This document shows positions 4,438 through 23,341 of a stretch of 64,000 nt of DNA, one piece after another; position 1 is the first letter of the stretch, and every line of letters starts with the position of its first letter. The stretch comes from Rhodoferax sp. GTDB taxonomy: Bacteria; Pseudomonadota; Gammaproteobacteria; Burkholderiales; Burkholderiaceae_C. The stretch spans positions 14,109 to 78,108 of the forward strand of contig NZ_JAMPXE010000002.1 of the NCBI RefSeq assembly GCF_023701345.1, given 5' to 3'. Both the position numbers and the translations under genes were made by a program. Below the pieces are notes generated by a model, which searched no databases, was not told where the DNA came from, and saw only the letters and a program-made list of their open reading frames with translations.

Positions 4438-4473
4438 TCTCTTTTTCCTTGTGATGAAAATCAGCTGCTAAAT

Positions 4474-4505: not shown

Positions 4506-4596
4506 ATGGACACATAAAAACTATTTGACACAATGGTACTTTAATCTTACTATTTGGTCAACAAACTAAGTATTTGAGACAAAGTTGAGGTGCCCA

Positions 4597-6415: not shown

Positions 6416-6421
6416 GACCCC

Positions 6422-7072
6422 ATGATGACCCACGAAATTCATACCCGTTTTGAGATCGCGCTGCAGCATTTGCCCCTGGTGGCAATTCTTCGCGGCCTGA
6501 CCCCAGCCGAAGCTGAGCCTGTAGCCAAGACCTTGTACCAGGCGGGCTTTCGCCTGATCGAAGTCCCGCTGAACTCGCCAGACCCGTTCACCAGCATTGG
6601 CCGCATCCGTCAGTGTCTGCCAGAGGATGCCCTGGTGGGTGCCGGTACGGTGCTGGATACAGCCGATGTGACGCGCCTGAAAGACATCAGCGCCGATCTG
6701 GTGGTGATGCCACATGCTGATACCGATGTGATCAGCGCCGCCAAAGCCCATGGTCTGATCAGTCTGCCCGGCATCGTCACACCGACCGAGGCCTTTGCGG
6801 CACTTAAGGCCGGTGCCAATGCGCTGAAGCTGTTCCCGGCCGAACTGGTGTCACCCGCCATCATCAAGGCGATGCGTGCTGTATTACCCAAAGCAACGCG
6901 TCTGTTCCCGGTGGGGGGCATCACACCCACCAACATGTCACCTTACTTGGCCGCCGGCGTCAGCGGTTTCGGATTGGGTTCCGCCTTGTATTCGCCTGGA
7001 GTCTCGCTTGCGCAGTTGTCCAGGCAAGCCGAATGCTTTGTTGCTGCGTGGAAGACGCAGTGCGCGGCATAG
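6422..7072 (+). CDS. dgoA: 2-dehydro-3-deoxy-6-phosphogalactonate aldolase
   Basis: PLVAILRG, IEVPLNSP, GAGTV, LKLFPAE, PVGGITP. Adjacent to dgoK. Confidence 0.9.
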   Translation: MMTHEIHTRFEIALQHLPLVAILRGLTPAEAEPVAKTLYQAGFRLIEVPLNSPDPFTSIGRIRQCLPEDALVGAGTVLDTADVTRLKDISADLVVMPHADTDVISAAKAHGLISLPGIVTPTEAFAALKAGANALKLFPAELVSPAIIKAMRAVLPKATRLFPVGGITPTNMSPYLAAGVSGFGLGSALYSPGVSLAQLSRQAECFVAAWKTQCAA

Positions 7073-7153
7073 AGAGTTCCTGACCATCGCGTCGGGGACC
7101 TCATTTTGTGTAGTTTTTTCACCAACTGTACTAATTTTTAACAATCAGGAGAA

Positions 7154-8125
7154 ATGATGAAATCGAAAACAGTGATAGCGCGTTTGTTGACGGCGATGTG
7201 CGCCTCCACCCTTTTACTCAGTGCCCCGGTTCGGGCTGCCGACTACCCGACCAAGCCGATTGAAGTGGTGGTGCCTTATTCCGCTGGCGGTGGGACAGAC
7301 CTGGTGACCCGCGCCTTTGTGGACACGGCCAAGAAATATCTGCCCAAGGCCATCGGTGTGGTCAACAAGACCGGCGGCGGTGGTGCCGTGGGTTTGTCTG
7401 AAATCGCGATGACGCGTCCCGATGGCTACAAAATCGGTACCGGCACGGTGGAAATCGCCATGCTGCCGCATATGGGCTTGGTGCAGTTCGCGGCTGATGA
7501 TTTTGCGCCTATCGCCCGCCTGAACGCGGAGCCGGCGGCCATTTCGGTCAACGCGAGTGCGCCATGGAACACCTATGAAGAGTTCATGACCTATGCCAAG
7601 GCCAATCCGGGCAAGGTGCGCATCGGCAATTCAGGTACCGGCGCCATCTGGCATCTGGCAGCGGAAGCGTTGTCGGACAAGACCGGCGCCAAGTTCAACC
7701 ACATCCCGTATGACGGCGCCAACCCCGCTGTGACGGCCCTGCTCGGTGGTCACATCGAAGCCGTTACGGTCAGCCCCGCTGAAGTGGTGGGTCATGTCAC
7801 GGCTGGCAAGGTCAAGATCTTGGCCGTGATGGCCGATCAGCGCCTGCCTTCGTTTGACAAAGTGCCCACACTGAAGGAAAAGGGCGTGGACCTGAGCATC
7901 CTGACCTGGCGCGGCATTGTGGTCCCCAAGAAGACCCCGCAAGACGTTCAGGACGTGTTGCGCACCGCAGCCAAAAAGACCGTGGAAGACCCGGCTTTCA
8001 AGGATCAGTTGGCCAAGATGAACCTGACACACGCTTATCTTGATGCCCCGGCATTCAAAGCGGCCATTGACAAGGACAACCTGTTCTTCAAAACCCTGAT
8101 GACCAAACTCGGCATCGCCAAGTAA
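7154..8125 (+). CDS. Tripartite tricarboxylate transporter substrate-binding protein (TctC/Bug)
   Basis: Signal peptide, YPTKPIEVVVPYSAGGGTD, NKTGGGG, PDGY, PYDGANPAVTALLGGH. Confidence 0.92.
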   Translation: MMKSKTVIARLLTAMCASTLLLSAPVRAADYPTKPIEVVVPYSAGGGTDLVTRAFVDTAKKYLPKAIGVVNKTGGGGAVGLSEIAMTRPDGYKIGTGTVEIAMLPHMGLVQFAADDFAPIARLNAEPAAISVNASAPWNTYEEFMTYAKANPGKVRIGNSGTGAIWHLAAEALSDKTGAKFNHIPYDGANPAVTALLGGHIEAVTVSPAEVVGHVTAGKVKILAVMADQRLPSFDKVPTLKEKGVDLSILTWRGIVVPKKTPQDVQDVLRTAAKKTVEDPAFKDQLAKMNLTHAYLDAPAFKAAIDKDNLFFKTLMTKLGIAK

Positions 8126-8134
8126 AACCTGATG

Positions 8135-8155
8135 CTGCCCGGTGACAGCGGGCAG
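8135..8155 (+). other. Stem-loop after the SBP gene (likely an mRNA stabiliser or partial terminator)
   Basis: CTGCCCG-GTGACAG-CGGGCAG, a perfect 7-bp stem 9 nt after the stop. Confidence 0.4.
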
Positions 8156-8248
8156 ACCGGACGACATAGCAAGGTCAGCCAACGTTTCCCGGTGGGCTTC
8201 GTGCCCGGCCCGGGTGCTTTGTGCTGCCAACTCGTGAGGTTCTAAACC

Positions 8249-8770
8249 ATGACTACATCCCAAGCCTCCACCCCAACAGAGCTGAAATCTGCGGGTTGGA
8301 ACATGGACATCGTTATCGCCGGCATCGTTTCGATGTTGGCCGTCGCCGCGATATTCTTTTCGCGCAAATTCCCTACCACTGGCCTAGCCACAGATATCGG
8401 TTCGGCGCGGTTTCCTCAAATTTACGCAGTTGCACTGCTGGTGCTGTGCGCGATGCTGATCGGCCGCCATCTGATCAAAGGCAGGCCAACGCCGTCCGCA
8501 GTGCCTGAGGGCATGGTGATCAATGTGGAAGTCCGCAACTACCGCAAAACCTTTGTCGGCATCGTCAGTTCGGTGATTTGTCTCGCCGCCATGCCCTACC
8601 TCGGTTATGGATTGGTCACCGTCACCTATCTGTCGTTTCTGATGTGGCTGATGGGCATGCGGCACAAGGCCTGGAACCCGCTCCTTGCCCTCACGATCAC
8701 CGCAGTCCTTTACTTCACCTTTTCGACCGGACTGAATGTGCCTTTGCCGTTCGGCAGCCTGTTTGAATAA
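8249..8770 (+). CDS. TTT small membrane subunit (TctB)
   Basis: About four hydrophobic segments, ARFP motif, ends LNVPLPFG. Lies between tctC and tctA. Confidence 0.85.
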   Translation: MTTSQASTPTELKSAGWNMDIVIAGIVSMLAVAAIFFSRKFPTTGLATDIGSARFPQIYAVALLVLCAMLIGRHLIKGRPTPSAVPEGMVINVEVRNYRKTFVGIVSSVICLAAMPYLGYGLVTVTYLSFLMWLMGMRHKAWNPLLALTITAVLYFTFSTGLNVPLPFGSLFE

Positions 8771-8797
8771 AACGAACCACTTCGTTGGAGACTTGCC

Positions 8798-10312
8798 ATG
8801 CAAGAACTGAATTTGCTTTTGAACGGGTTTGCCGCCTTGGCGCACCAACCCATGGCACTGCTGCTGGCTGTGATCGGCGTTGCCGTGGGTATTGTGATCG
8901 GTGCCATGCCGGGTCTGACCGCGACCATGGGGGTAGCGATCCTGTTGCCCTTCACCTTTGGCATGGACCCGGTGTCGGGCCTGCTGATGATTTCCGGCGT
9001 GTATTTCGGCGGGGTGTATGGCGGTTCCATTACCGCCATCCTGCTGAAAATTCCAGGCACCCCCGCCGCGGCCGCCACGGCGATCGACGGTTTTGAGCTG
9101 ACCAAAAAGGGCATGGCCGGCATTGCGCTGGGCACAGCGACCCTTTCGTCGTTCATCGGCGGTACCCTGAGCGTTATCGTGCTGGTGTTCATGGCGCCCC
9201 TGCTGGCGGGTGTGGCCCTTGAATTCAGCGCGTCGGAGACCTTTGCACTGGCCGTCTTTGGTTTGAGCATCATCGCCAGCATCTCGGGCAAATCGCTGGT
9301 CAAGGGCCTGATTGCCGGTTTTGTCGGCCTGCTGATCTCCACCATCGGGCTTGATCCGATGGGCGGCTTCCCAAGGTTTACCGGCGGTTTTGTTGAGCTG
9401 ATGAGTGTGCCGTTCATCCCGGTGATGATCGGCCTGTTTGCCGCTGCTGAAGCCTTCAAGCAGATGGAAACCAGCGACATCGTCAAGAGGAAGGCCGCAG
9501 AACTGGGCCGCATCATTCCGCCCTGGTCGGTCTTCAAAGGCCTGATCTTCACGATTCTGCGTTCGGCGGGTCTGGGGATTTTCATCGGGGCGATCCCGGG
9601 TGCCGGTGCCGACATCGCGGCGTTTGTGGCCTACAACGAAGCCAAACGCTTCAGCAAGCACCCGGAGAACTTTGGCAAGGGTGAACTGTCCGCTGTTGCG
9701 GCCTGCGAATCCGGCGCCAATGGCTGTACCGGTGGCGCCATGTTGCCGATGCTGACACTGGGCATTCCGGGGGATGCCACCACCGCAGTGATGCTGGGGG
9801 CGCTGACGCTGCAAGGTTTGCAACCTGGCCCGCTGCTGTTCAAGGATCACAGCGATCTGGTGTTCACCCTGTTTGCGGGCATGTTGTTCTGTTACCTGGC
9901 CATGTTGGTGATTGGTTTGGGGTCGCTGCGTTTCATCGGCAAGATCCTGCAGATGCCCAAGTCGGTACTGACACCCACCATCCTGGCGCTGTGTGTGGTG
10001 GGCACCTACGCGATCAACAACAGCATGTTCGACATCGGCATCATGCTCGCTGCTGGCGTGCTGGGCTACTTCATGGAGAAGTGGGATTTCCCGCCCTCAC
10101 CCATCGTGCTGGCGCTGATCATGGGCCCGATGGCTGAGAGCAACTTCCGGCGCGCCTTGTCGTTGTCCAACGGCAGCTACGACTTCCTCTATACCCGCCC
10201 GATCACCGCCACCTTCCTGGTCATCGCCTTGCTGTCGCTGTTCTTTCCGGTGATCAGCAGATACCGGCATAAACGTCTGCTACGCCGACTTGCCAGCGCC
10301 AACGCGGCCTGA
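8798..10312 (+). CDS. TTT large permease (TctA)
   Basis: GAMPGLTATM, YGGSITAILLKIPGTP, LTLGIPGD. 504 aa. Confidence 0.93.
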   Translation: MQELNLLLNGFAALAHQPMALLLAVIGVAVGIVIGAMPGLTATMGVAILLPFTFGMDPVSGLLMISGVYFGGVYGGSITAILLKIPGTPAAAATAIDGFELTKKGMAGIALGTATLSSFIGGTLSVIVLVFMAPLLAGVALEFSASETFALAVFGLSIIASISGKSLVKGLIAGFVGLLISTIGLDPMGGFPRFTGGFVELMSVPFIPVMIGLFAAAEAFKQMETSDIVKRKAAELGRIIPPWSVFKGLIFTILRSAGLGIFIGAIPGAGADIAAFVAYNEAKRFSKHPENFGKGELSAVAACESGANGCTGGAMLPMLTLGIPGDATTAVMLGALTLQGLQPGPLLFKDHSDLVFTLFAGMLFCYLAMLVIGLGSLRFIGKILQMPKSVLTPTILALCVVGTYAINNSMFDIGIMLAAGVLGYFMEKWDFPPSPIVLALIMGPMAESNFRRALSLSNGSYDFLYTRPITATFLVIALLSLFFPVISRYRHKRLLRRLASANAA

Positions 10313-10339
10313 TCCAACCATTTTGCAAAGGACAATGTG

Positions 10340-11245
10340 ATGAAGATAACCACCCTGAGCGCGGATGCGCTGCTATGTCCTGAGGTACGTAACGCCGTTG
10401 GCGAAAGCCCGGTCTGGGATGTGAATTCGGCTTGCTGGTTGTGGATCGACCAGGCTGGCAAGGTATTCCGTCTGGACCCGGCCACCGGTGAAACCCGTCA
10501 CTGGTCGGTGACAGAGAAAATCGGCAGCATGGTGCTGCGTCCCGACGGTGGTCTGGTGTGTTGTTGCGAGACCGGCATTTTTGATGTGGAGTTGGGTGAG
10601 AGCGAGGCCGCCGGCATGACACGGCTGGCCTCAATCACCCACCCGAAGACCGGCATGCGCTTCAACGACGGACGTTGTGACCGGCAAGGGCGGCTCTGGG
10701 TGTCCACCATGGTGATGGACATTTCGCTGGGTGATGCGTCCGGAAGCTGGTTTCGCTACACCCGCCAGGAGGGGCTCATCGCCTCCGACTTTGGCGACTT
10801 TGTGATTCCGAACGGTTCGGCCTTCAGCCCGGATGGCAAGACCTTTTATTGCTCCGACACCCATCGCGATGTGCGCATGCTCTGGCAATTTGACTACGAC
10901 ACCGACGCCGGTGTTCCGAGCAACAAGCGCCCGTTTGTCGACCTGCGCGATGCGCCGGGACGCCCGGACGGCGCGGCGGTGGACGTGGATGGTTGCTACT
11001 GGATTTGCGGTCTGGATGAAGGCAGCATCATGCGCTTCACCCCGCAGGGCAAGCTTGATCACAAGTTCATGCTGCCGATGCAAAAACCGACCATGTGCTC
11101 CTTCGGTGGCGCCGATGGCCAAACCATGCTGGTGACGTCGCTGTGCCGAGGCGAGAAAGACCTGGAGACCGATCCACATGCCGGTCGGCTGCTGATGTTC
11201 AGGCCGGGTGCACAAGGGATTGTTGAACCACGGCTGCTGGCCTGA
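10340..11245 (+). CDS. SMP-30/gluconolactonase/LRE family beta-propeller
   Basis: GESPVWD, RFNDG, PNGSAFSPDG and PDGAAVD, with the E/N/N/D metal ligands intact. Confidence 0.9.
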   Translation: MKITTLSADALLCPEVRNAVGESPVWDVNSACWLWIDQAGKVFRLDPATGETRHWSVTEKIGSMVLRPDGGLVCCCETGIFDVELGESEAAGMTRLASITHPKTGMRFNDGRCDRQGRLWVSTMVMDISLGDASGSWFRYTRQEGLIASDFGDFVIPNGSAFSPDGKTFYCSDTHRDVRMLWQFDYDTDAGVPSNKRPFVDLRDAPGRPDGAAVDVDGCYWICGLDEGSIMRFTPQGKLDHKFMLPMQKPTMCSFGGADGQTMLVTSLCRGEKDLETDPHAGRLLMFRPGAQGIVEPRLLA

Positions 11246-11332: not shown

Positions 11333-12844
11333 TCAGTTGCCACTCGTAACCATCGTGATCCTGGGTTTTCTAAAAAACCTCAACAGGATCGGCAAACACC
11401 ACAAGGTCAGGGTAAACACGCCCAGCCCTCCCGCAATCGGACGCTCGAAAAAAGCCAGCATGGAACCATCGGACTTGATCAATGAGGTAGTCAGGCTGCG
11501 TTCGACCAGTCCACCCATCACGATGCCAAGGATGGTGGGAGCCACGGGGAACCCATTTTCCTCCATCATGTAGGCGATGACCCCCATCACCAGCATGATG
11601 ACGATGCCGGATGCCGATGCATCAATTGCATACGAGCCGACGATACAGAACACGAGGATCAGCGGTGCCAGGATCAGTTTCGGGACGACGAGTACCTTGG
11701 TCCCCACACGGATCGCCAACAGACCCAGCGGGATGATTAGCAGATTGGCCAGCAGGAACACCAGAAAAATCGCCATGACCTGCGGCGCGTTGTTAACAAA
11801 GATCATCGGACCGGGGTTGAGGCCTTTCATGTAGAGGACACCAATCACGATGGCCGTGATCGAGTCGCCGGGAATGCCAAAAACCAGAGCAGGCACATAC
11901 GCACCCGACAACGCGGCGTTGTTCGCTGAGCAGGCTTCAACCAAACCTTCATCGTGGCCTGTTCCGAACTTCTCTGGCGTCTTGGAGCGCATTTTTGCCG
12001 TCGCGTAGGCAATCCAGGAACCGATATCGGATCCTGCTCCCGGCAAGATACCAATGATGGTGCCAATCAGCGAGCCGCGCACTACGTTAAATCGATATTT
12101 GAATAATGAACCACCCAGACCATCAAAGATGGTTCGGAAGTTGCCGACACTCTTAGGTCTTTTTACCTGTGTTGCGCCGAGCAGCGTGCGTATGACCTCG
12201 GGAATGGCGAACATACCGATGAGTGCTGGTACAAAAGATACGCCACTGATCAGAGAAGGCTGGTCGAAGGTAAATCGAGGATAGCCAGAAGATGCATCTT
12301 GACCCACTGTCGCTATCAATAATCCAAGCGCCAATGAAAGCAGTCCTTTGATGACGGATCCGGTTCCCAGCATGACAGCGGCAGACAAGCCCAGAAGAGC
12401 CAGCCAGAAATACTCGAAGCTGGTGAAATTGATGGAAACTTCTGCCAGTTGCGGAGCTGCCAAGATGAGAATCAAGGTGCCAAATATCCCGCCGATGCAT
12501 GAACATATGACCGAAATGCCAAGTGCTCGTCCTGCACGTCCTTGCTTGGCGTATTCGTGCATTTCGTCCACATATGCTGCCGACGCTGCAGTTCCGGGAA
12601 TGCGTATAAGAGCCGCAGGTATATCAGAAGCGAAAATCGCCATGCATGCCGTCGTGACGATAGCGGCAATCGCCGTCACGGGTGGCATATAGAAGGTTAA
12701 AGGCACCAGCATGGCTGTTGCCATCGTGGCCGACAGTCCGGGTACCGCCCCGACGAACAGGCCAAAAGCCGCGCACGCCAGCATCGTTATCAGCGTCTGT
12801 GCATTGAAAACAAGCGGCAATGCAGCCGACATATGATCGAGCAT
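11333..12844 (-). CDS. TTT large permease (TctA), second system
   Basis: GAVPGLSATM, LIRIPGT, LVFGIPGD. Start placed at ATG 12844, which overlaps the tctB stop (TGATG); the ORF-track extension to 13171 overlaps tctB. Confidence 0.9.
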   Translation of the reverse strand: MLDHMSAALPLVFNAQTLITMLACAAFGLFVGAVPGLSATMATAMLVPLTFYMPPVTAIAAIVTTACMAIFASDIPAALIRIPGTAASAAYVDEMHEYAKQGRAGRALGISVICSCIGGIFGTLILILAAPQLAEVSINFTSFEYFWLALLGLSAAVMLGTGSVIKGLLSLALGLLIATVGQDASSGYPRFTFDQPSLISGVSFVPALIGMFAIPEVIRTLLGATQVKRPKSVGNFRTIFDGLGGSLFKYRFNVVRGSLIGTIIGILPGAGSDIGSWIAYATAKMRSKTPEKFGTGHDEGLVEACSANNAALSGAYVPALVFGIPGDSITAIVIGVLYMKGLNPGPMIFVNNAPQVMAIFLVFLLANLLIIPLGLLAIRVGTKVLVVPKLILAPLILVFCIVGSYAIDASASGIVIMLVMGVIAYMMEENGFPVAPTILGIVMGGLVERSLTTSLIKSDGSMLAFFERPIAGGLGVFTLTLWCLPILLRFFRKPRITMVTSGN

Positions 12845-13305
12845 CACAACCAGCTCCCCATTGGCAAAGGCACGTAAAGCATTCGGGTCATCACCAGAGC
12901 CACTATGGCAACGAAACCAGCCGCCATGACAAAAATCAACGGCTTGCGCAAGCCCGACAGCAGGTACATTCCCGTGCACATCACCAGCGCGCCAAGCGGA
13001 AAACCGATATCTTCGAACCAGATGGAGAGTACCAGGGTACCCAAGAGACAGAAAACCACGCTTGCCAGGTGGAGAGGCTGGTACCAACCAGGATCCAGCG
13101 TGACAAGCGCGCTCTTGCGCAAGCGTCTTAGCGACATTGCGGCAACGATTGCACCACCGATCATCATGCATGTCCCGATCAGGGTGGGAAAGGTCGATGG
13201 GCCAATTTCTTGCCCAGGCATCTGAGGGAAATGCCGTGCTATGAGCAGCACGGCAAGCCCCAATGCCATAAAGAAAAGACCACTAAACGCATCGTGAAGC
13301 CGCAT
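12844..13305 (-). CDS. TTT small membrane subunit (TctB), second system
   Basis: Hydrophobic, GPSTFP motif, ends LYVPLPMG. GGAG RBS before ATG 13305. Confidence 0.85.
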   Translation of the reverse strand: MRLHDAFSGLFFMALGLAVLLIARHFPQMPGQEIGPSTFPTLIGTCMMIGGAIVAAMSLRRLRKSALVTLDPGWYQPLHLASVVFCLLGTLVLSIWFEDIGFPLGALVMCTGMYLLSGLRKPLIFVMAAGFVAIVALVMTRMLYVPLPMGSWL

Positions 13306-13381
13306 ATAAACATCTCCATGTCTGACTGCGCCAAAACCGCAGTCAGACATATACAAAAATCACTACTTAAATCACCACTTA

Positions 13382-14371
13382 CTACTTGGTAATACCTACT
13401 GCACGCAGGGTCGATCCAACGTCCGCATCAGACTTTTTCATGAAGCTCACAAACTCATCGCCGGCATTCCACTGGGTTGCGTATCCGCGACTATTCATGA
13501 ACTTGAGGTATTCCGGATTCACAACGACCTTCGCCACAGCTTTTTGCAGAGTCGCCAGGATATTTGGAGGAGTACCCTTTGGCGCAACCAAGCCGCGCCA
13601 TGATCCCATGGACCAGGACTTTCCTGTAGCTTCGGTAAACGTTGGTAAATCCGATTTTGCAGCCGCGCGTTTGTCAGCGAAAATAGCAACGGGCCGGATG
13701 CGACCAGCATCCATCAAGGCTTGCGCCTCGGGCAGAGAGGCTACAGCGAACTGCACGCCGCCAGCCGCCAGATCCTGCAAACCAGGGGCTGCACCTTCTG
13801 ACGGAACCCAGGCCACGCGATCAGCTGGAATATCCGACGCCAACAACATGCCAGCCATTGCCAGGTGATTCACGCCACCTTGAGCCGAACCCGAGGCCTT
13901 AAAGGCGCGGTTCGCACTGGCGCGAATGGCACCTACCAAGTCATTGGCTGTCTTGTAGGGCGAGTCCATCCGCACGAATACCGCTGCCGGGTCAGAGTTG
14001 TAGATCCCGATCGGTGCGTAGGACTGATAGGTGAGAGTCGTCAGCCCCTGGTAGTGCATGCTGCCGATCTCCAGCGTAGCCACGCCGATGGTGTAACCAT
14101 CCGGCGCTGCCGAAGCGATTGCGCTATGGCCCACCACGCCTGACCCCCCCGTTCGATTGACAACCGGAACGGGTACACCAAGTTCCTTCTCCAACAACGT
14201 GCCGATCATGCGCGCGGTTGCATCTGTTCCACCACCGGCGCCCCAAGGTACGATCAGGGTTACCGGCTTGGCTGGCCAGTCGGCTGCCTGTACCGCAGTC
14301 GCAAAAGAGGTGCCCAAAACCAGGGCTGTTCCTGCCACCAGGGCGAAACGTCGGTTAAAACACGTAGCCAT
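13382..14371 (-). CDS. TTT substrate-binding protein (TctC/Bug), second system
   Basis: WPAKPVTLIVPWGAGGGTD, NRTGGSG, APDGYT. Confidence 0.92.
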   Translation of the reverse strand: MATCFNRRFALVAGTALVLGTSFATAVQAADWPAKPVTLIVPWGAGGGTDATARMIGTLLEKELGVPVPVVNRTGGSGVVGHSAIASAAPDGYTIGVATLEIGSMHYQGLTTLTYQSYAPIGIYNSDPAAVFVRMDSPYKTANDLVGAIRASANRAFKASGSAQGGVNHLAMAGMLLASDIPADRVAWVPSEGAAPGLQDLAAGGVQFAVASLPEAQALMDAGRIRPVAIFADKRAAAKSDLPTFTEATGKSWSMGSWRGLVAPKGTPPNILATLQKAVAKVVVNPEYLKFMNSRGYATQWNAGDEFVSFMKKSDADVGSTLRAVGITK

Positions 14372-14425
14372 CAGTCTATCTCCTTAAAAATTGCGGCAGC
14401 AAAATACCACCGACTTGGTTGAAAA

Positions 14426-15838
14426 TCAAACCACCTTGCCGGGATTGAGCAGGTTCTTTGGATCAAGTGCACCCTTCAGCGTGCGCATCAGTGCGATCTC
14501 TTCGGGCGTTCGGGCGTGCCCCAACCACCGTTGCTTCAACGTGCCGATCCCGTGCTCTGCTGAGACGGTGCCGTGATAAGCGCGCACCAGTTCATAAACC
14601 ACCTCCTCGACATCGTCTTTGGGTTGAGTGGCAACGCCGGGTAGGAAGGCCACAATATGCATGTTGCCGTCACCAATATGCCCGTAGAACACCGACAGGC
14701 ATCCCGGCACGCGTTCCGCCAGTTTTTCCTTGCAGCGGCGTGCATATTCATCCATAGCGGCAACCGGAAGTCCAATGTCAAAAGCCATGTGGCGCGGCCA
14801 TAAGGTATGCAGCTCGCCACAAGCATCGCGCACGCCCCAGAAGGCACCGGCGTCCGCCACCGACTGGGCAACTGCTGCATCGGGGATCACACCGTTCTCA
14901 AGCAAGCGCCCCAGCCACGCTTCGAAACGGGGGGCATCCAGGGTCGGGTCGGTACCAAGCGCTTCGATCAATACATAGGCCGCACGAGGAGGCGCATCAT
15001 GGCCAAATGGATTGCGAACACCAGGCGCTTGCGTCGTTGCAAAAGTCCAGTAGTCAGGCCACATCACTTCAAAGGCTGACAGCAGCGGTCCGAGCTCGCT
15101 GCGCGCCGACGACAGCAAACGAAGCACTGTTTCAAAATCATCGGCTGCGCAAATTGCCGTCATGGTTGACGCCGGCTTGGGAAACATCTTCAACACAATG
15201 CGCGTGATAATGCCAAGCGTTCCTTCACTGCCGATGAACAGGTGCTTTAGATCAAAGCCGGCATTGTTCTTGATCATTTTGTTCATGCTGGTAACCACGG
15301 TGCCATCGGCCAAGACCGCCTCGAGACCAAGAACCATCTCCCGTGCCATCCCGTATCGGATAACCCGGTTACCACCAGCGTTGGTCGAGAGATTGCCTCC
15401 TATGGCACAAGATCCGCGTGCACCCAGATCGAGTGGACAAAAGAAGCCCGCATCTGCCGCGGCCTGCTGCACTGTCTCCAACGGCGTTCCGGCCCGGACG
15501 GTCATGGTGGCCGAAGCTGGATCAATCTCTTCTATGCCGACCATTCTCTCCATCGAGAGTGCAATCTGGTCCTCTCCAGCTCGTGCACCGCCGCACAAGC
15601 CTGTCAATCCGCCTTGGGGAACCACCGCAATTCCATGCAGGTTACAAAGGCGCATCACGGTCGAAATCCCCTGGGTATCGGATGGACGAACCACTGCCAG
15701 CGGACGTGACGGCAACATGCCGCTGTAGTCATTGTGATTTCGAACCGGCAGATTGTTGCCTGTCAAAACGGCGGTGGGGCCGAGTTTTTCAAGAAGTTCC
15801 TGCAGTACAGTGGATTGGGCGGTGGCTGTCATAGTCAT
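14426..15838 (-). CDS. FAD-binding 2-hydroxyacid oxidoreductase (D-lactate/D-2-hydroxyglutarate dehydrogenase, GlcD-like)
   Basis: PQGGLTGLCGG, IGGNLSTNAGG, GSEGTLG, GHIGDGNMH, SAEHGIG, LDPKNLLNPGKV. Start (15838 or 15832) uncertain. Confidence 0.88.
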   Translation of the reverse strand: MTMTATAQSTVLQELLEKLGPTAVLTGNNLPVRNHNDYSGMLPSRPLAVVRPSDTQGISTVMRLCNLHGIAVVPQGGLTGLCGGARAGEDQIALSMERMVGIEEIDPASATMTVRAGTPLETVQQAAADAGFFCPLDLGARGSCAIGGNLSTNAGGNRVIRYGMAREMVLGLEAVLADGTVVTSMNKMIKNNAGFDLKHLFIGSEGTLGIITRIVLKMFPKPASTMTAICAADDFETVLRLLSSARSELGPLLSAFEVMWPDYWTFATTQAPGVRNPFGHDAPPRAAYVLIEALGTDPTLDAPRFEAWLGRLLENGVIPDAAVAQSVADAGAFWGVRDACGELHTLWPRHMAFDIGLPVAAMDEYARRCKEKLAERVPGCLSVFYGHIGDGNMHIVAFLPGVATQPKDDVEEVVYELVRAYHGTVSAEHGIGTLKQRWLGHARTPEEIALMRTLKGALDPKNLLNPGKVV

Positions 15839-15870
15839 GATGTCTGTGTGCTTCTCGTAAAAAGTTGAAC

Positions 15871-16743
15871 TCAATGCCCAAACTGGTCATCGAGATGTTT
15901 ATGAAATGGCAGACCTATGCGCTCCGAGAAGTCGGCATAGCTCACCATACCGCTGGCAGCAGCGGCTGGGGTTCCATCTACCTTCAATCGCAGGAGTGCA
16001 TCGCTTACCGCCTTGACTGCGGTAAAGAGCGTCGTAACGGCATAAAACACAACGGAGAACCCCATCTCCTGCAGGTCTGCGGCCGTGAGTGCGACCGTCT
16101 CGTTGCCATCGACGATTGACACAACTTTGGGCCCATTCACCGCCCTGGCAATAGCCTCGATCTCGGCGATTTTTTTAATGCCATCGACAAATACCAGGTC
16201 CACACCTGTGTCCTGGAAAAGCTTGGCCCTGCGAACCGCCTCGTCTATCCCCGCGGCAGGAAGTGCATCGGTGCGGCCGATGATTAACAGGTCATCATCA
16301 CCGCGCGACTGAACGGCGCAGCGTAAGCGCAGCGCAGCCTCGCCCGCATCCATCAAACGGATGCCCGCCATCTGGCCACAACGTTTGGGTGCCACCTGGT
16401 CCTCCAGATGTATGGCGGCAACACCTGCCTGCAAATACTCACGTACGGTGCGATGGATGTTGGAGGGGCCTCCATAGCCGGTGTCAGCATCGGCAATCAC
16501 CGGAATCTCAACCACGCGTACCATGTCCCTGGCGTGCGTTGTCATCTCGGTCTGCGTCATCAGTCCGATGTCCGGACATCCAAGGCGAGTGGCTGTTGCA
16601 CCGAATCCCGTCATGTAGATAGCAGGAAATCCTGCCTGCTGAATCAACCGTGCGGTCAACGCGTCTGGTGCGCCTGGCGCCATCACGATCTGACCCGACT
16701 GAAGCAGAGTCCGCAGCGCCCCTGCCTGTGTGAGCTTGTTCAT
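15871..16743 (-). CDS. Isocitrate lyase/PEP mutase superfamily enzyme with a variant active-site loop (KRCGQ)
   Basis: DALTA, YMTG, DADTGYG, IHLEDQ, KRCGQ, GRTDA. Confidence 0.88.
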   Translation of the reverse strand: MNKLTQAGALRTLLQSGQIVMAPGAPDALTARLIQQAGFPAIYMTGFGATATRLGCPDIGLMTQTEMTTHARDMVRVVEIPVIADADTGYGGPSNIHRTVREYLQAGVAAIHLEDQVAPKRCGQMAGIRLMDAGEAALRLRCAVQSRGDDDLLIIGRTDALPAAGIDEAVRRAKLFQDTGVDLVFVDGIKKIAEIEAIARAVNGPKVVSIVDGNETVALTAADLQEMGFSVVFYAVTTLFTAVKAVSDALLRLKVDGTPAAAASGMVSYADFSERIGLPFHKHLDDQFGH

Positions 16744-16931
16744 GGCGGCTATTTCCTGAAATGCTCAAGGGCCGCACCGCGCGCTGACAACCGCCCAACG
16801 CAAGGCGAACCTACTTGACTGAAAAAGTACAAACTCACCGATATTGCAAGAATGGCAACTTCGATAAAGGGTAAGGATGTCATCATGAAATTGGGTTGAT
16901 AGGGTTGTATATGCGCTTGATGTATTGTTGT

Positions 16932-16947
16932 ATGTAAGGCATTACAT
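16932..16947. promoter_or_regulatory. Candidate GntR operator
   Basis: Perfect inverted repeat ATGTAA-GGCA-TTACAT in the AT-rich divergent region. Further TGTA/TACA half-sites nearby (for example TTGTA-N7-TACAA, 16989-17005). Confidence 0.4.
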
Positions 16948-17046
16948 GTGAACTGGTGTTTACCCTATGTTGGCAATTTCCATCAAACTTGTACCTCACA
17001 TACAATGAGCAACCATCCCAACATGGACTACCCTGGAAGGAAAATT

Positions 17047-17751
17047 GTGAAACGATCGCTCAAGCTAGCGCCCACCAGTTCACTGGCCACCCTGGCAACC
17101 CAGCGCATCCGCGACGCCATCACCGATGGGGAATTTGCCCTTGGTGAAATGATTCCCGAAGAGTCCCTGGCGCAAGCCATGGGCATCAGCAGAACGCCCG
17201 TGCGAGAAGCTTTAAACCAATTGCAGCGTATCGGTCTCGTCGTGATCAAACCGCAACGTGGCAGTTATGTGTTCGAACCCAGCGAAGAAGATATTGACGC
17301 CATCTGTAGCTACCGCTACATGCTGGAAAGTCAGGCTGCCAGGATGGCCCATGCGCAAAATATGGAAGCAACACTGAACGCAATGTCTGACGCGGTGACT
17401 GCCATGGAGAAGGCGCGCGGAGATGGCGACCGTGTGGCTTACGGTCAGGCTGACACCCGTTTCCACGCAGCTTTTTTCGAAAACTGCGGCAATGACTACC
17501 TGCGAGCTGCCTATGACTTGGTCTCTGGCAAGATTGCTGCTTTGCGCACTCAGTTGACGGCGCCCTTTGATGCCTTGCGCAGCCAGTCTTTCGATGAACA
17601 CCGCGACTTCGTCGAGCTGTTTCGAGTGGGCGGTTTCACGCAGATCGATGCACTGATGCGCGAACACGTCAACCGCACAGGCGTCGTCTACTCACAGGCC
17701 TGGAAAGCACTGCAGAAGACCACTGCAGATCAGACTGACCGAAAAATCTGA
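17047..17751 (+). CDS. GntR-family (FCD domain) regulator
   Basis: wHTH EESLAQAMGISRTPVREAL; FCD-type FH...CGN.YL and EH. Start chosen at GTG 17047 after GGAAGG; ATG 17005 is also possible. Confidence 0.88.
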   Translation: MKRSLKLAPTSSLATLATQRIRDAITDGEFALGEMIPEESLAQAMGISRTPVREALNQLQRIGLVVIKPQRGSYVFEPSEEDIDAICSYRYMLESQAARMAHAQNMEATLNAMSDAVTAMEKARGDGDRVAYGQADTRFHAAFFENCGNDYLRAAYDLVSGKIAALRTQLTAPFDALRSQSFDEHRDFVELFRVGGFTQIDALMREHVNRTGVVYSQAWKALQKTTADQTDRKI

Positions 17752-17757
17752 ACTGTG

Positions 17758-18204
17758 ATGGACTGCAAATACTGCGATTTTCTAAAGCATGGCCACCTAC
17801 CCGATGGTATGCAACCGGTGGGGCGTGTCAACGGAGCGGATGCGCTTCTGTTGATCGATAGCAAACACCCCGGACGCTGTGTTCTGGTGTCACCTTGGCA
17901 TGTTCGCGATCTTTTCGACCTACTGCCAACGCAGCGAAGCGAGTTCCTCGAAGCCGTCAGCCGCCTTGCCAAGGTTGTGTCCACAGCCTGCGCTGCTGAC
18001 AAGGTGAACATCGCGTTTTATGGCGACCTGTCTGACCATCTGCATGCGCATGTGGTGCCCAAGTGGCGCGATGGCCCTTGTTGGGGTGACGCATTTAATC
18101 TGCAACCGACGATCGCTGAGGAACCAGGTGCAGGTCCATTTAGCAATCTGAGCTGGACAGACGTTAATGAAAACCTTAGGGGGCTCATTCGCACCGGCAA
18201 CTGA
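17758..18204 (+). CDS. HIT-family hydrolase
   Basis: N-terminal CxxC, PGR.VLV, and the histidine triad HLHAHVVP. Confidence 0.8.
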   Translation: MDCKYCDFLKHGHLPDGMQPVGRVNGADALLLIDSKHPGRCVLVSPWHVRDLFDLLPTQRSEFLEAVSRLAKVVSTACAADKVNIAFYGDLSDHLHAHVVPKWRDGPCWGDAFNLQPTIAEEPGAGPFSNLSWTDVNENLRGLIRTGN

Positions 18205-18453: not shown

Positions 18454-20715
<2,262 letters not shown>

Positions 20716-20767
20716 AAATTTCCTTCAAATCAAAAAAACCTGGATTGCCACGCTGCGCAATGACACT

Positions 20768-21706
20768 TCAGGACGGGGACAGCTCAGGCCAATACAAGCG
20801 CATCGGGTTGGCCACCAGCAGCTGGTACTGCAGCGCTGCGGTGGGGGCGATGTGCGGAATAAAGTCGACCAGCAGGCCGTCGTCGGGCATGTGGTCCTTG
20901 AGGTTGGGGTGCGGCCAGTCGGTGCCCCAGAGCACGCGGTTCGGGAACTCTGCAACGATCGCCCGGGCAAACGGCACCACGTCGCGGTAAGCGTTCTGCT
21001 CGCCGTTCAGGGCTTTCGGGCCGGTCACGCTCAGGCGCTCGGGGCAGCTGACCTTGCTCCAGACGTTGGCGTGCTCGCGCATGAATTTCTGGAACAGGGC
21101 AAACTGCGGGCCGTCCACCGGCAGCGACACGTCGGGGCGGCCCATGTGATCGACCACCACGGTGGTGGGCAGCGCCGTAAAAAAATCCCACAGTTCGGGC
21201 AGATCCACCGCTTCAAAATAGATCACCACATGCCAGCCCCAGTGCTTGATGCGCGCGGCAATTTCCATCAGCTCGTCCTTGGGCGTGAAGTCCACCAGGC
21301 GCTTGACAAAGTTGAAGCGAACGCCGCGCACACCGGCGTCGTGCATGGCCTGCAGTTCGGTGTCGCTCACGCTGCGTTTCACGGTGGCCACGCCGCGCGC
21401 CCTGCCTTCTGAATGGATGAGCGCATCGACCAGCGCGCGGTTGTCGGCGCCATGGCAGGTGGCCTGCACAATCACGTTTTTGTCGAATCCGAGGTGGTCG
21501 CGCAGCGCAAACAGCTGCGCCTTGGAGGCATCACACGGCGTGTACTTGCGCTCGGGGGCATAGGGGAACTCGGCACCCGGGCCGAACACGTGGCAATGCG
21601 CGTCCACCGCACCGGCGGGCAATTTGAACGTGGGCTTGGCAGGACCGGCGTACCAGTCCATCCAGCCGGAGGTTTTGGTGAAATCACCTGTGGTGGCTTG
21701 GCTCAT
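20768..21706 (-). CDS. ligI: 2-pyrone-4,6-dicarboxylate hydrolase
   Basis: DAHCHVFGP, VQATCHG, RFNF, DHMGRP, WGTDWPHP. Confidence 0.93.
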   Translation of the reverse strand: MSQATTGDFTKTSGWMDWYAGPAKPTFKLPAGAVDAHCHVFGPGAEFPYAPERKYTPCDASKAQLFALRDHLGFDKNVIVQATCHGADNRALVDALIHSEGRARGVATVKRSVSDTELQAMHDAGVRGVRFNFVKRLVDFTPKDELMEIAARIKHWGWHVVIYFEAVDLPELWDFFTALPTTVVVDHMGRPDVSLPVDGPQFALFQKFMREHANVWSKVSCPERLSVTGPKALNGEQNAYRDVVPFARAIVAEFPNRVLWGTDWPHPNLKDHMPDDGLLVDFIPHIAPTAALQYQLLVANPMRLYWPELSPS

Positions 21707-22635: not shown

Positions 22636-22645
22636 GGGGAGGTGT

Positions 22646-23329: not shown

Positions 23330-23341
23330 ACTTTCTCCTGT

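What the first reader, a model, noticed from the sequence alone, without database searches (positions are those of the whole stretch)
11333..16743. Orphan catabolic operon: variant ICL/PEP-mutase enzyme, FAD 2-hydroxyacid oxidoreductase and TTT
Seen: the lyase-type loop reads KRCGQ (codon CAG) rather than the KRCGH of methylisocitrate lyase, dimethylmalate lyase and oxaloacetate hydrolase. The position of PrpB's 'FPEA' Glu reads FVDG, and the 'ANMTE' strand reads VSIVD. Three active-site changes with Cys retained point to a C-C lyase with new specificity. It is co-oriented with a D-2-hydroxyacid dehydrogenase-like gene and a carboxylate importer, under a divergent GntR. Inference: ICL-type cleavage of a 2,3-dihydroxy or hydroxy-polycarboxylate (tartrate, hydroxycitrate or dimethyltartrate-like) would release a 2-oxo acid plus a 2-hydroxy acid, which the flavoprotein then oxidises. 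An alternative is oxidation of phosphono- or sulfo-lactate followed by hydrolysis, but known phosphonopyruvate hydrolases lack the loop Cys.
Basis: partly seen in the sequence, partly recalled or inferred. Interest (0 to 1): 0.7.

Follow-up and report, generated by a model that had tools for sequence, protein, structure and literature searches.

The report
Uncharacterised lyase-family enzyme with dehydrogenase partner
The operon encodes an intact but unstudied variant of the isocitrate-lyase/PEP-mutase enzyme family that is paired in many soil and water bacteria with a D-2-hydroxy-acid dehydrogenase, a carboxylate importer and a GntR repressor, so it marks a widespread catabolic step whose substrate is unknown.

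Summary
The 290-aa protein (15871-16743, minus strand) reads KRCGQ (codon CAG), FVDG and VSIVD where methylisocitrate lyases read KRCGH, FPEA and ANMTE. I also found Arg241 replaced by Phe. This is not a private mutation: 120 of 120 close homologues and 78 of 80 genome loci carry it, across Beta-, Alpha- and Deltaproteobacteria and Streptomyces. The Mg2+ ligands, Lys, Arg and the catalytic Cys are invariant, and the model superposes on solved lyases (TM about 0.85).

The operon is not orphan. In 49 of 64 complete loci the enzyme sits with a D-2-hydroxy-acid dehydrogenase of one of three different kinds. It also sits with a TTT, TRAP or MFS importer and an FCD-GntR regulator. Minimal operons like this window's hold nothing else.

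Accessory genes recur: sorbitol-dehydrogenase-like SDRs, pyruvate aldolases, and a genuine 3-dehydroshikimate dehydratase.

My best reading is oxidise-then-cleave catabolism of a polyhydroxy monocarboxylate. The substrate is unassigned, and no paper was found that assigns it. I class it as a new variant of a known kind.

The parts
15871..16743 (-). ICL/PEP-mutase-family enzyme, 290 aa, 'KRCGQ clade'. It keeps the Mg2+ ligands (D58, D85, D87, E114), K120, catalytic C122 and R157. The leaving-group pocket is changed: Q124, D187, S209, V211, D212, F240.
   Evidence: PF13714 E=4e-49. It scores below every NCBIfam equivalog cut-off, for example PrpB 241 against 354 bits. Alignments to 1zlp, 3fa3, 4iqd, 3lye and 3eoo. 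Invariant columns. AlphaFold pLDDT 84.6 and Foldseek TM 0.82-0.85 to MICL, PDP, DMML and OAH.
16372..16386 (-). Codons for K120-R121-C122-G123-Q124 (AAA CGT TGT GGC CAG), in the flexible gating loop.
   Evidence: Sequence read directly. Residues 120-125 have pLDDT below 50 in the model, consistent with a mobile loop.
14426..15874 (-). FAD-linked D-2-hydroxy-acid dehydrogenase. The start is either TTG at 15874, overlapping the upstream stop by 4 nt, or an ATG about 36 nt downstream.
   Evidence: PF01565 + PF02913. Best solved relatives are 3pm9 and human D2HGDH. R386, Y432, H434, H441, E475 and H476 are kept, while T390 is Gly, K401 is Ala and N443 is Val. All 36-38 orthologues show the same loss. 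Start region read.
13382..14371 (-). TctC periplasmic receptor of a tripartite tricarboxylate transporter, with an RR-type signal peptide.
   Evidence: PF03401 E=6e-43. Orthologues at 64-77% identity lie next to the enzyme in L015, L020, L033, L047 and L068. No solved homologue with a known ligand is close.
12844..13356 (-). TctB small membrane subunit.
   Evidence: PF07331.
11333..12850 (-). TctA large membrane subunit. The start is approximate because the ORF runs further upstream.
   Evidence: PF01970 E=9e-132.
17005..17751 (+). Divergent GntR/FCD regulator. The ORF is listed from 16948; the ATG at 17005 is the likely start.
   Evidence: PF00392 + PF07729. Homologues are present in 59 of 80 related loci. 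Intergenic sequence read.
16933..16946 (.). Palindrome TGTAAGGCATTACA in the GntR/enzyme intergenic region; candidate GntR operator.
   Evidence: It occurs once in 64 kb, with 0 expected. TGTA-N(4-8)-TACA occurs 14 times in about 1.2 Mb of related loci, and 8 of those lie in promoter regions of the cluster operons.
17755..18204 (+). HIT-family protein directly after GntR. It is a recurrent neighbour of unknown role.
   Evidence: PF01230. Homologues sit beside the enzyme in L003, L006, L007, L018 and L033.
14394..14412 (-). Hairpin plus T-run between the dehydrogenase and tctC; possible attenuator or partial terminator.
   Evidence: Consensus scan only. The number of such hits in the region is no higher than in shuffled sequence.

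Best explanation
The window holds a self-contained catabolic unit: TTT importer, D-2-hydroxy-acid dehydrogenase, Cys-retaining ICL/PEPM-family enzyme and FCD-GntR repressor.

**Shown**
- The enzyme has the complete lyase-branch catalytic apparatus.
- It belongs to a tight, widely transferred clade with a remodelled leaving-group pocket.
- Its constant partner is a D-2-hydroxy-acid dehydrogenase built for a monocarboxylate.

**Inferred mechanism (oxidise, then cleave)**
1. A polyhydroxy D-2-hydroxy monocarboxylate, of the sugar-acid or cyclitol-acid type, is imported.
2. The dehydrogenase oxidises it to the 2-oxo acid.
3. The ICL-like enzyme binds the 2-oxo-carboxylate on Mg2+ and breaks the C3-C4 bond by a retro-aldol reaction. 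This is the chemistry used by ketopantoate hydroxymethyltransferase in the same superfamily.
4. Cys122 protonates C3 of the (hydroxy)pyruvate enolate. The products are (hydroxy)pyruvate and an aldehyde.

Gln124, Asp187 and Ser209 replace the His, Glu and Asn that surround the departing carboxylate in known lyases, because the leaving group here is neutral.

In other genomes extra modules extend the pathway: SDRs, pyruvate aldolases, and 3-dehydroshikimate dehydratase. The substrate itself is not identified.
For: **The enzyme looks active**
- D58, D85, D87, E114, K120, C122 and R157 are invariant across 21 sequences down to 57% identity. These are the residues found essential in ICL by QM/MM and mutagenesis: Asp108, Glu182, Cys191 and Arg228. 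The loop His is not among them (PMC7609661).
- The fold matches solved lyases.

**The partner is constant**
- 49 of 64 loci with at least 4 kb of flank on each side carry a D-2-hydroxy-acid dehydrogenase of one of three kinds: the orthologue of the window's, a GlcD-like paralogue, or an NAD 2-Hacid_dh. In 22 loci it lies directly downstream.
- Minimal operons in Alpha-, Beta- and Deltaproteobacteria contain only importer, GntR, enzyme and dehydrogenase.

**The substrate is probably a monocarboxylate**
- The flavoprotein keeps the 2-hydroxy-acid and Zn site but loses the distal-carboxylate binders.
- The TRAP receptors of the cluster are closest to 4p47 (ligand-free) and to binders of sugar acids, 2-keto-3-deoxygluconate, erythronate and pantoate. 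They are far from C4-dicarboxylate DctP.
- The MFS importers belong to the galactonate/HpaX family.

**'Dehydrogenase first' is the older logic**
- The 59% outgroup pairs the enzyme with a Zn-alcohol dehydrogenase.
- The 51% sister pairs it with an SDR similar to SDR-A and a TRAP system.
- SDR-A or SDR-B flanks it in 46 of 80 loci.

**Regulation**
- A conserved TGTA-N-TACA palindrome lies at the operon promoters.
Against: - No experiment or expression data exist. Only DNA metagenome runs hold this sequence.
- The order of the two enzymes is inferred, not shown.
- If the enzyme is itself a 2-oxo-acid aldolase, the DHDPS-like and HpcH aldolases in 22 of 64 loci look redundant.
- Eight or nine loci have an SDR but no D-2-hydroxy-acid dehydrogenase.
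- The recurrent 3-dehydroshikimate dehydratase, AroE-like and dehydroquinase genes have no role in this scheme.
- The roles I give to His125, Glu188 and Asn210 in known lyases come from memory of the structural literature. I could not retrieve those papers.
Confidence: 0.38

Rival explanations
1. Lyase first. A 2,3-dihydroxy-dicarboxylate or -tricarboxylate, such as a tartrate isomer, methyltartrate, or hydroxycitrate cleaved towards oxaloacetate, is split by an ICL-type reaction into a 2-oxo acid plus glycolate or D-lactate. The dehydrogenase then oxidises that product irreversibly.
For: - The enzyme's closest characterised relatives are 2-alkylmalate-type lyases and OAH.
- The two-enzyme operon with a TTT importer would be self-sufficient.
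- For all three dehydrogenase kinds, a top-two NCBIfam match is a glycolate/glyoxylate enzyme: GlcD at 255 and 335 bits, glyoxylate reductase at 228 bits second to PGDH at 257.
- Glycolate or lactate would fit a flavoprotein built for a monocarboxylate.
- Removing a product by oxidation would pull a reversible lyase reaction forward.
Against: - The TRAP receptors resemble binders of monocarboxylic sugar acids, not dicarboxylate binders.
- The model gives no role to the SDRs directly upstream in 46 of 80 loci, to the aldolases, or to the dehydroshikimate dehydratase.
- The NAD 2-Hacid_dh variant would have to run in the unfavourable direction on glycolate.
- The outgroups pair the enzyme with alcohol dehydrogenases, which points to activation of the substrate before cleavage.
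Confidence: 0.2
2. Hydroaromatic role. The enzyme acts on 3-dehydroquinate, a tertiary alpha-hydroxy acid whose beta-carbanion is stabilised by the ring ketone. It would either open the ring by retro-aldol cleavage to 4,5-dihydroxy-2,6-dioxoheptanoate, or act as a non-homologous dehydroquinase feeding 3-dehydroshikimate dehydratase.
For: - A QuiC1-type dehydratase lies in 13 of 80 loci across four different operon architectures. These include the tight Streptomyces operon SDR-MFS-enzyme-2Hacid_dh-DSD-GntR.
- The L046 copy keeps all ten QuiC1 active-site residues.
- None of these 13 loci has a canonical dehydroquinase.
- Operons of the form MFS-SDR-enzyme-DSD map exactly onto quinate to protocatechuate.
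- Other shikimate-pathway genes lie nearby: AroE-like genes in 3 loci, DHquinase_II near the enzyme in L003 and in the sister locus L084, and an SDR resembling hydroxycyclohexanecarboxylate dehydrogenase beside the DSD.
- In the window the operon abuts a protocatechuate 4,5-cleavage/pobA cluster.
- The Glu-to-Asp, Asn-to-Ser and His-to-Gln changes fit a ketone replacing a carboxylate as the carbanion-stabilising group.
Against: - The most constant partner, a D-2-hydroxy-acid dehydrogenase, has no substrate in quinate chemistry, because quinate C1 carries no hydrogen.
- Minimal operons, including this window's, have neither an SDR to make dehydroquinate nor a DSD.
- Aldolase and DSD co-occur in L048, so they are not simple alternatives.
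- Part of the association may be supra-operonic clustering of genes for plant-acid catabolism.
Confidence: 0.13
3. Acylpyruvate-type hydrolase. An SDR oxidises C4 of a 2-keto-3-deoxy sugar acid. The enzyme hydrolyses the resulting 2,4-diketo acid to pyruvate plus glycolate, D-lactate or D-glycerate. The D-2-hydroxy-acid dehydrogenase then oxidises that hydroxy acid. This would be a non-homologous replacement of the FAH-family hydrolase of the known non-phosphorylative pentose and 6-deoxyhexose route (that route is recalled from my own knowledge).
For: - It gives a role to the SDR, the enzyme, a monocarboxylate-specific dehydrogenase, TRAP receptors of the sugar-acid/KDG type, the aldolases and the pfkB kinase together.
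- The Cys would protonate the pyruvate enolate.
- A 2-keto-3-deoxygalactonate operon lies next door in the window.
Against: - Minimal operons, including this window's, lack the SDR, so no 2,4-diketo acid would be made.
- The clusters contain no aldonate dehydratase.
- It does not explain the dehydroshikimate dehydratase.
Confidence: 0.1
4. C-P or C-S hydrolase. Phosphonolactate or (R)-sulfolactate is oxidised to phosphono- or sulfopyruvate, and the enzyme hydrolyses that to pyruvate plus phosphate or sulfite.
For: - The superfamily contains phosphonopyruvate hydrolase.
- The GntR's best NCBIfam match is a phosphonate-utilisation regulator, although at 108 bits against a cut-off of 271.
- The NAD dehydrogenase's best match is 3-phosphoglycerate dehydrogenase.
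- The two-gene operon would be self-sufficient.
Against: - The protein scores 110 bits against a 374-bit cut-off for phosphonopyruvate hydrolase.
- The pocket keeps an acidic Asp187 and gains no cationic residue.
- No sulfite exporter or oxidase and no phn genes are found in 80 loci.
- The sugar-acid-like receptors, SDRs and aldolases are unexplained.
Confidence: 0.04
5. Ordinary or dead enzyme: a divergent methylisocitrate or dimethylmalate lyase, or an inactive paralogue.
For: The best NCBIfam match is PrpB. Some databases name homologues '2,3-dimethylmalate lyase'.
Against: - It scores 241 bits against a 354-bit cut-off.
- The residues that bind the distal carboxylate of methylisocitrate are replaced.
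- No prpC, prpD or acnD neighbours appear in 80 loci.
- 65-82% identity is maintained from Streptomyces to Comamonadaceae with invariant catalytic residues, which indicates strong purifying selection.
Confidence: 0.03

Closest known systems
Petal death protein (carnation, PDB 1zlp) and fungal 2,3-dimethylmalate lyase (3fa3) / oxaloacetate acetylhydrolase (3lye)
   Same: - They are the best sequence matches (E=5e-56 to 2e-49) and have the same fold (TM 0.82-0.84).
- They share the YMTGxG, DADTGYGG, EDQ and KRCG motifs and the catalytic Cys.
- They also lack the MICL Arg that binds a distal carboxylate.
   Different: They read KRCGH, Glu and Asn where this clade reads Gln, Asp and Ser. They are not paired with a D-2-hydroxy-acid dehydrogenase. 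Identity is only 32-37%.
2-Methylisocitrate lyase PrpB (1mum, 3eoo, 9hgk)
   Same: It is the best NCBIfam model (241 bits) and the best structural match (TM 0.85). It uses the same Mg2+/Cys mechanism.
   Different: The protein scores below the 354-bit cut-off. Asn210, Thr212 and Arg241 are replaced by Ser, Val and Phe. There is no methylcitrate-cycle context.
Ketopantoate hydroxymethyltransferase (PanB) and PA4872 oxaloacetate decarboxylase (3b8i)
   Same: They are superfamily members that form a Mg2+-bound 2-oxo-acid enolate by breaking or making the C3-C4 bond. That is the chemistry I favour here.
   Different: Their sequences are distant (3b8i E=5e-31). By my recollection they have no KRCG Cys loop. 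The comparison is mechanistic only.
D-2-hydroxyglutarate dehydrogenase (human 6lpn; R. palustris 3pm9), compared with the flavoprotein partner
   Same: Same two-domain FAD fold. The Zn and 2-hydroxy-acid site is kept: R386, H434, H441, E475 and H476.
   Different: Lys401, Asn443 and Thr390, which hold the C5 carboxylate, are replaced by Ala/Ser, Val and Gly/Ala/Ser in every orthologue. 3pm9 keeps Lys and Asn.
Quinate/shikimate catabolic clusters (qsuABCD, quiBCXA)
   Same: A QuiC1/QsuB-type 3-dehydroshikimate dehydratase, dehydrogenases, an importer and a regulator are co-transcribed with the enzyme in several lineages.
   Different: These loci have no AroD/AroQ dehydroquinase, and they add the ICL-like enzyme and a 2-hydroxy-acid dehydrogenase. 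The window itself has no dehydratase gene.

Membership tests
ICL/PEP-mutase superfamily (PF13714) | Sequence profile and (beta/alpha)8 fold | tested here: met
   PF13714 at 167.7 bits against a cut-off of 31.5. Foldseek TM 0.82-0.85 to MICL, PDP, DMML and OAH.
ICL/PEP-mutase superfamily, lyase branch | Mg2+ ligands (Asp58, Asp85, Asp87, Glu115), Lys121, Arg158 and the general-acid Cys123 on the gating loop | tested here: met
   All are present and invariant in the alignment. Their roles are taken from PMC7609661.
Isocitrate lyase family signature K-[KR]-C-G-H-[LMQR] (recalled from PROSITE) | His two residues after the Cys | tested here: not met
   Gln (CAG) in the window and in all 120 close homologues.
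2-Methylisocitrate lyase PrpB | NCBIfam equivalog score | tested here: not met
   TIGR02317 at 241.2 against 354.4 bits; NF008455 at 191.8 against 353 bits.
2-Methylisocitrate lyase PrpB | Residues for the distal carboxylate (Asn210, Thr212, Arg241) and a methylcitrate-cycle neighbourhood | tested here: not met
   Ser, Val and Phe at the aligned positions. No prp genes in 80 loci. The residue roles are recalled from the literature.
PEP mutase / phosphonopyruvate hydrolase / CPEP mutase | NCBIfam equivalog scores | tested here: not met
   114.3 against 319.6, 110 against 374.4 and 205.6 against 420 bits.
Oxaloacetate acetylhydrolase | Marker Ser after strand 7 (recalled from Joosten et al. 2008), plus KRCGH | tested here: not met
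   Ala235 aligns with the OAH Ser in 'ifSfa'. The loop has Gln, not His.
D-2-hydroxyglutarate / D-malate dehydrogenase (the flavoprotein) | Lys401, Asn443, Thr390 and Tyr432 binding the distal carboxylate | tested here: not met
   Only Tyr432 is kept.
Glycolate oxidase subunit GlcD (the flavoprotein) | NCBIfam equivalog score and GlcE/GlcF partners | tested here: not met
   255 against 568 bits. No glcE or glcF lies beside it.
Tripartite tricarboxylate transporter | TctC, TctB and TctA genes together | tested here: met
   PF03401, PF07331 and PF01970.
GntR family, FadR/FCD subfamily | Winged-helix GntR domain plus FCD domain, and a palindromic GT-N-AC operator | tested here: met
   PF00392 + PF07729. 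TGTAAGGCATTACA occurs once in the window, and palindromes of the same type lie at related promoters. Binding is not shown.
Quinate/shikimate catabolic cluster | Dehydroquinase plus dehydroshikimate dehydratase plus quinate/shikimate dehydrogenase in the locus | tested here: not met
   None of these is in the window's operon. The dehydratase is present in 13 of 80 related loci, and a dehydroquinase only in L003 and the sister locus L084.

The most novel reading that the evidence does not exclude
The enzyme acts on 3-dehydroquinate. It either opens the ring by retro-aldol cleavage, which would give an oxygen-independent, non-aromatic route for the very abundant plant acids quinate and shikimate, or it replaces dehydroquinase non-homologously. 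The His-to-Gln, Glu-to-Asp and Asn-to-Ser changes would then adapt an aci-carboxylate pocket to a ketone enolate.
Probability: 0.13. Interest if true: 0.85.

Novelty: new variant of a known kind. Interest (0 to 1): 0.55.

Why it matters
The ICL/PEP-mutase superfamily is a classic case of one scaffold evolving many C-C and C-P chemistries, yet most of its bacterial branches have no assigned function.

This clade is abundant in soil, rhizosphere and groundwater bacteria, and it has clearly been exchanged between phyla: about 70% identity between Streptomyces and Comamonadaceae.

It comes with a ready-made experimental handle. There is a constant dehydrogenase partner, three kinds of binding-protein-dependent or MFS importers for ligand screening, and a regulator with a recognisable operator.

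Finding the substrate would do three things:
- add a catabolic step to metabolic reconstructions;
- correct thousands of 'methylisocitrate lyase-like' and 'carboxyvinyl-carboxyphosphonate phosphorylmutase' annotations;
- possibly reveal a new link between sugar-acid and quinate/shikimate catabolism.

Tried and rejected
**Gene calling in the related loci**
- Picking the longest ORFs failed in these GC-rich loci because antisense ORFs won.
- A GC3 rule missed the window's own low-GC3 genes.
- I replaced both with a codon log-odds caller. Its starts are often too short, and one cluster merged DctP with an SDR (resolved by Pfam).

**Searches that added little**
- A metagenome scan for the 51% sister clade returned mostly distant PrpB-like genes. 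Only L087 was useful.
- The neighbourhoods of other variant clades (P0125, P0128, P0144) were unrelated or uninformative.
- Ten literature searches found no paper that assigns a function or links the family to quinate, tartrate or sugar acids.
- The classic structural papers (DMML, OAH, PA4872) and the TRAP-screen paper are not in the library.
- Only DNA metagenome runs hold the sequence, so there are no expression data.

**Ideas considered and rejected or down-weighted**
- D-malate to oxaloacetate followed by decarboxylation, and any C5-dicarboxylate substrate such as pentarate or 2,4-dihydroxyglutarate, because the flavoprotein lacks the distal-carboxylate site.
- Aromatic 2-hydroxy acids such as mandelate and aryl-lactates, because this fold has no plausible cleavage chemistry on aryl 2-oxo acids.
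- Piscidic and eucomic acid.
- Pantoate, by two routes: via ketopantoate to 2-oxoisovalerate + formaldehyde, or via 3,3-dimethylmalate. This remains chemically attractive but has no specific support.
- Chorismate-type enolpyruvyl-ether hydrolysis.
- A reverse, cyclising role that makes dehydroquinate from a linear 7-deoxy acid. It fits the gene content, but I know of no natural substrate.

Full report
**1. Observation**

The minus strand carries five co-oriented genes:
- an ICL/PEP-mutase-family protein, 15871-16743, 290 aa;
- a two-domain FAD-linked oxidase, 14426-15874;
- tctC 13382-14371, tctB 12844-13356 and tctA 11333 to about 12850.

A GntR/FCD regulator (likely start 17005, end 17751) and a HIT protein (17755-18204) are transcribed divergently.

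The loop codons are AAA CGT TGT GGC CAG, which is KRCGQ. Alignments to solved structures show three things:
- FVDG aligns with FPEA/FVEA/FLEG, so Glu becomes Asp.
- VSIVD aligns with ANMTE/ANLTE/LNMVE, so Asn becomes Ser, Thr/Val becomes Val and Glu becomes Asp.
- The MICL Arg in 'yRa' is Phe here.

The enzyme's stop overlaps a possible TTG start of the oxidase by 4 nt. An ATG lies about 36 nt further on.

**2. Is it more than chance?**

All 120 best homologues (74-100% identity) read KRCGQ. Of 80 loci from a one-genome-per-species collection, at 65-82% identity, 78 read KRCGQ / F[VI]DG / VS[IL]VD.

The taxa include Comamonadaceae (Variovorax, Hydrogenophaga, Rhodoferax, Polaromonas, Pseudorhodoferax), Rhizobiales, Acetobacteraceae, Azospirillum, a Geopsychrobacteraceae MAG, and at least 14 Streptomyces.

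In a library of 50%-identity representatives the clade is isolated. The next full-length relatives are 51% and 47% identical.

Across the wider family the His position varies (H, Q, Y, F, A, L, M, W), and FVDG also occurs together with KRCGH. An outgroup clade at about 59% identity, from Verrucomicrobia-type freshwater bacteria, reads KRCGH/FVDA/ISIVEG. The Asp and Ser changes are therefore older, and His to Gln is the step that defines this clade.

**3. The enzyme looks active**

D58, D85, D87, E114, K120, R121, C122, G123 and R157 are invariant in an alignment reaching down to 57% identity. QM/MM work and mutagenesis on M. tuberculosis ICL single out the equivalents of D58, E114, C122 and R157 plus a Mg-bound water. 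That work does not single out the loop His (PMC7609661).

The AlphaFold model has a mean pLDDT of 84.6, with low confidence only in loop residues 120-125. It superposes on MICL, PDP, DMML and OAH at TM 0.82-0.85.

The protein scores below every curated equivalog cut-off: PrpB 241/354, CPEP mutase 206/420, PEP mutase 114/320 and phosphonopyruvate hydrolase 110/374 bits.

**4. Neighbourhoods**

I called genes in the 80 loci with a home-made codon model and clustered them. I named the clusters with Pfam, NCBIfam and PDB searches.

Among the 64 loci with at least 4 kb of flank on each side:
- 49 carry a D-2-hydroxy-acid dehydrogenase;
- 39 carry SDR-A or SDR-B;
- 44 carry an orthologous TTT, TRAP or MFS importer;
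- 22 carry a DHDPS-like or HpcH aldolase;
- 12 carry a 3-dehydroshikimate dehydratase;
- only 8 carry neither a D-2-hydroxy-acid dehydrogenase nor an SDR.

Across all 80 loci the dehydrogenase is of three kinds: the window's orthologue at 60-77% identity (36 loci), a GlcD-like paralogue (6) and an NAD 2-Hacid_dh (12). GntR homologues are present in 59 of 80 loci.

The recurrent operon architectures are:
- (A) GntR | FADox-DctQMP-SDR-SDR-enzyme-DHDPS-like-(pfkB), in Variovorax and Pseudorhodoferax;
- (B) DctQMP-SDR-GntR-enzyme-FADox-SDR-[split DSD], in Hydrogenophaga;
- (C) GntR-enzyme-SDR-DctQMP-FADox-HpcH, in Rhizobiales;
- (D) SDR-MFS-enzyme-2Hacid_dh-DSD-GntR, in Streptomyces, with intergenic gaps of 9-52 bp;
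- (E) GntR | MFS | SDR-enzyme(-DSD);
- (F) TctCBA-GntR-enzyme-2Hacid_dh-SDR-DSD;
- (G/H) minimal units holding only importer, GntR, enzyme and dehydrogenase.

The minimal units are the window, L002, L003, L018, L021, L033, L047/L068 and Azospirillum. The window's closest complete relatives, L002 and L003, are of this minimal type.

**5. The partner dehydrogenase**

Against human D2HGDH the flavoprotein keeps R386, Y432, H434, H441, E475 and H476. It has Gly, Ala and Val at T390, K401 and N443. Those three residues, together with Y432, bind the distal carboxylate of D-2-hydroxyglutarate and D-malate, and the K401 mutant is dead (PMC7801405).

All orthologues have Ala or Ser at 401 and Val at 443. 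The R. palustris homologue 3pm9 keeps Lys and Asn. The substrate is therefore a D-2-hydroxy acid without a D-malate- or 2-hydroxyglutarate-like second carboxylate.

**6. Transporters and regulator**

The cluster's DctP is closest to 4p47 (ligand-free) and to CxaP/7bbr (sugar acids, 2-keto-3-deoxygluconate). Next come erythronate and pantoate binders at E=1e-55 to 1e-61. C4-dicarboxylate DctP lies at about 1e-35.

The MFS importers fall in the galactonate/HpaX family. The window's TctC has no informative solved relative.

The palindrome TGTAAGGCATTACA occurs once in the window, in the GntR/enzyme spacer. Of the 14 TGTA-N(4-8)-TACA sites in about 1.2 Mb of related loci, 8 sit at promoters of the cluster. 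The identical TGTACGGTACCTTACA lies upstream of the importer genes in both a Hydrogenophaga and a Geopsychrobacteraceae locus.

**7. The hydroaromatic thread**

The 626-aa neighbour matches P. putida QuiC1 (5hmq) at E=1e-146 over its full length. It keeps all ten published DSD active-site residues (PMC7442255; alignment).

Other links to the shikimate pathway:
- None of the 13 DSD-containing loci has a canonical dehydroquinase.
- Three Hydrogenophaga loci add an AroE-like gene.
- L003 has one full and one partial DHquinase_II gene within 7 kb of the enzyme.
- The 51% sister locus L084 reads SDR-TRAP | enzyme | IclR-GFO-DSD-DHquinase_II.
- The SDR beside the DSD resembles cis-4-hydroxycyclohexanecarboxylate dehydrogenase.

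In the window the operon is flanked on the right by LigC/B/A, two Amidohydro_2 proteins (LigI- and LigJ-like), LigK and PobA. On the left is an IclR-DgoK-KDPGal aldolase-TctCBA-lactonase operon.

**8. Interpretation**

The most general regularity is 'a secondary-alcohol dehydrogenase plus the ICL-like enzyme':
- a Zn-ADH in the 59% outgroup;
- a sorbitol-dehydrogenase-like SDR in the sister and in much of the clade;
- a D-2-hydroxy-acid dehydrogenase in the KRCGQ clade.

The simplest reading is that the dehydrogenase installs the carbonyl that makes the C-C bond cleavable. With a 2-hydroxy-acid dehydrogenase as partner, that carbonyl is C2. The enzyme would then bind a 2-oxo acid on Mg2+ and release a (hydroxy)pyruvate enolate that Cys122 protonates. 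Gln, Asp and Ser would line a pocket for a neutral leaving group.

This accounts for the self-sufficient two-enzyme operons, the monocarboxylate-type flavoprotein and the sugar-acid-like receptors. It does not account for the aldolases or the shikimate genes.

The rivals each explain a different subset of the evidence: tartrate-type lyase first, dehydroquinate lyase or dehydroquinase, diketo-acid hydrolase, and C-P/C-S hydrolase. I therefore give the favoured model only 0.38 and treat the substrate as open.

**9. Novelty**

I found no paper assigning a function. Public names for homologues are generic or inherited: 'isocitrate lyase/PEP mutase family protein', '2,3-dimethylmalate lyase' and 'carboxyvinyl-carboxyphosphonate phosphorylmutase'.

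The enzyme is a new functional variant inside a known superfamily. It is neither categorically new nor an ordinary member.

Noticed in passing
window 3661-11245: This looks like a sugar-acid operon served by a second TTT system. It comprises a divergent SDR (3661-4437, minus strand), then IclR (4585-5421), 2-keto-3-deoxygalactonate kinase DgoK (5414-6415), a KDPG/KDPGal-type aldolase (6422-7072), TctC/B/A (7154-10312) and an SMP-30/gluconolactonase (10337-11245). No galactonate dehydratase is in the operon. A TTT importer in a De Ley-Doudoroff-type pathway is unusual.
   Followed up: partly
window 18454-26208 (minus strand): This is a protocatechuate 4,5-cleavage cluster with pobA. It comprises a LigC-like GFO oxidoreductase, LigB, LigA, two Amidohydro_2 proteins (LigI- and LigJ-like), a DUF1932/NAD-binding protein, LigK aldolase, a hemerythrin-domain protein (23342-23893) embedded in the cluster, and 4-hydroxybenzoate 3-monooxygenase.
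   Followed up: partly
window 11333-18204 compared with its flanks: The operon has a lower third-codon-position GC (about 0.58-0.63) than its neighbours (0.74-0.87), and lower overall GC (0.54-0.57 against about 0.60). Together with about 70% identity between phyla, this suggests horizontal acquisition.
   Followed up: partly
window 2033-3502 (minus strand): A tryptophanase / tyrosine phenol-lyase family gene (NF009709, 667 bits).
   Followed up: no
window about 26238-29153 (minus strand): TRAP transporter genes (DctM- and DctP-like tblastn matches) lie just beyond pobA. They may import an aromatic acid.
   Followed up: no
window 17755-18204; L003, L006, L007, L018, L033: A small HIT-family protein recurs beside the enzyme or GntR in three different operon layouts and three proteobacterial classes. 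The pathway as I understand it gives it no role.
   Followed up: partly
L004, L005, L014, L022 (for example L005 11260-13109): In Hydrogenophaga the two-domain QuiC1-type dehydroshikimate dehydratase is split into two adjacent ORFs in reversed order: the HPPD-like half comes first and the TIM-barrel half second.
   Followed up: no
L034, L040, L056 (about 7569-7949): In Azospirillum a 126-aa ABM-domain protein sits directly before the enzyme in a GntR | GlcD-like-DctP-DctQM-ABM-enzyme operon.
   Followed up: no
L033 4178 and L005 3372 / L013 3399: The same or nearly the same 16-nt palindrome, TGTAC(G/C)GTACCTTACA, lies upstream of the importer genes in a Geopsychrobacteraceae (Deltaproteobacteria) locus and in Hydrogenophaga (Betaproteobacteria). 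The regulator and its operator appear to have moved together with the genes.
   Followed up: partly
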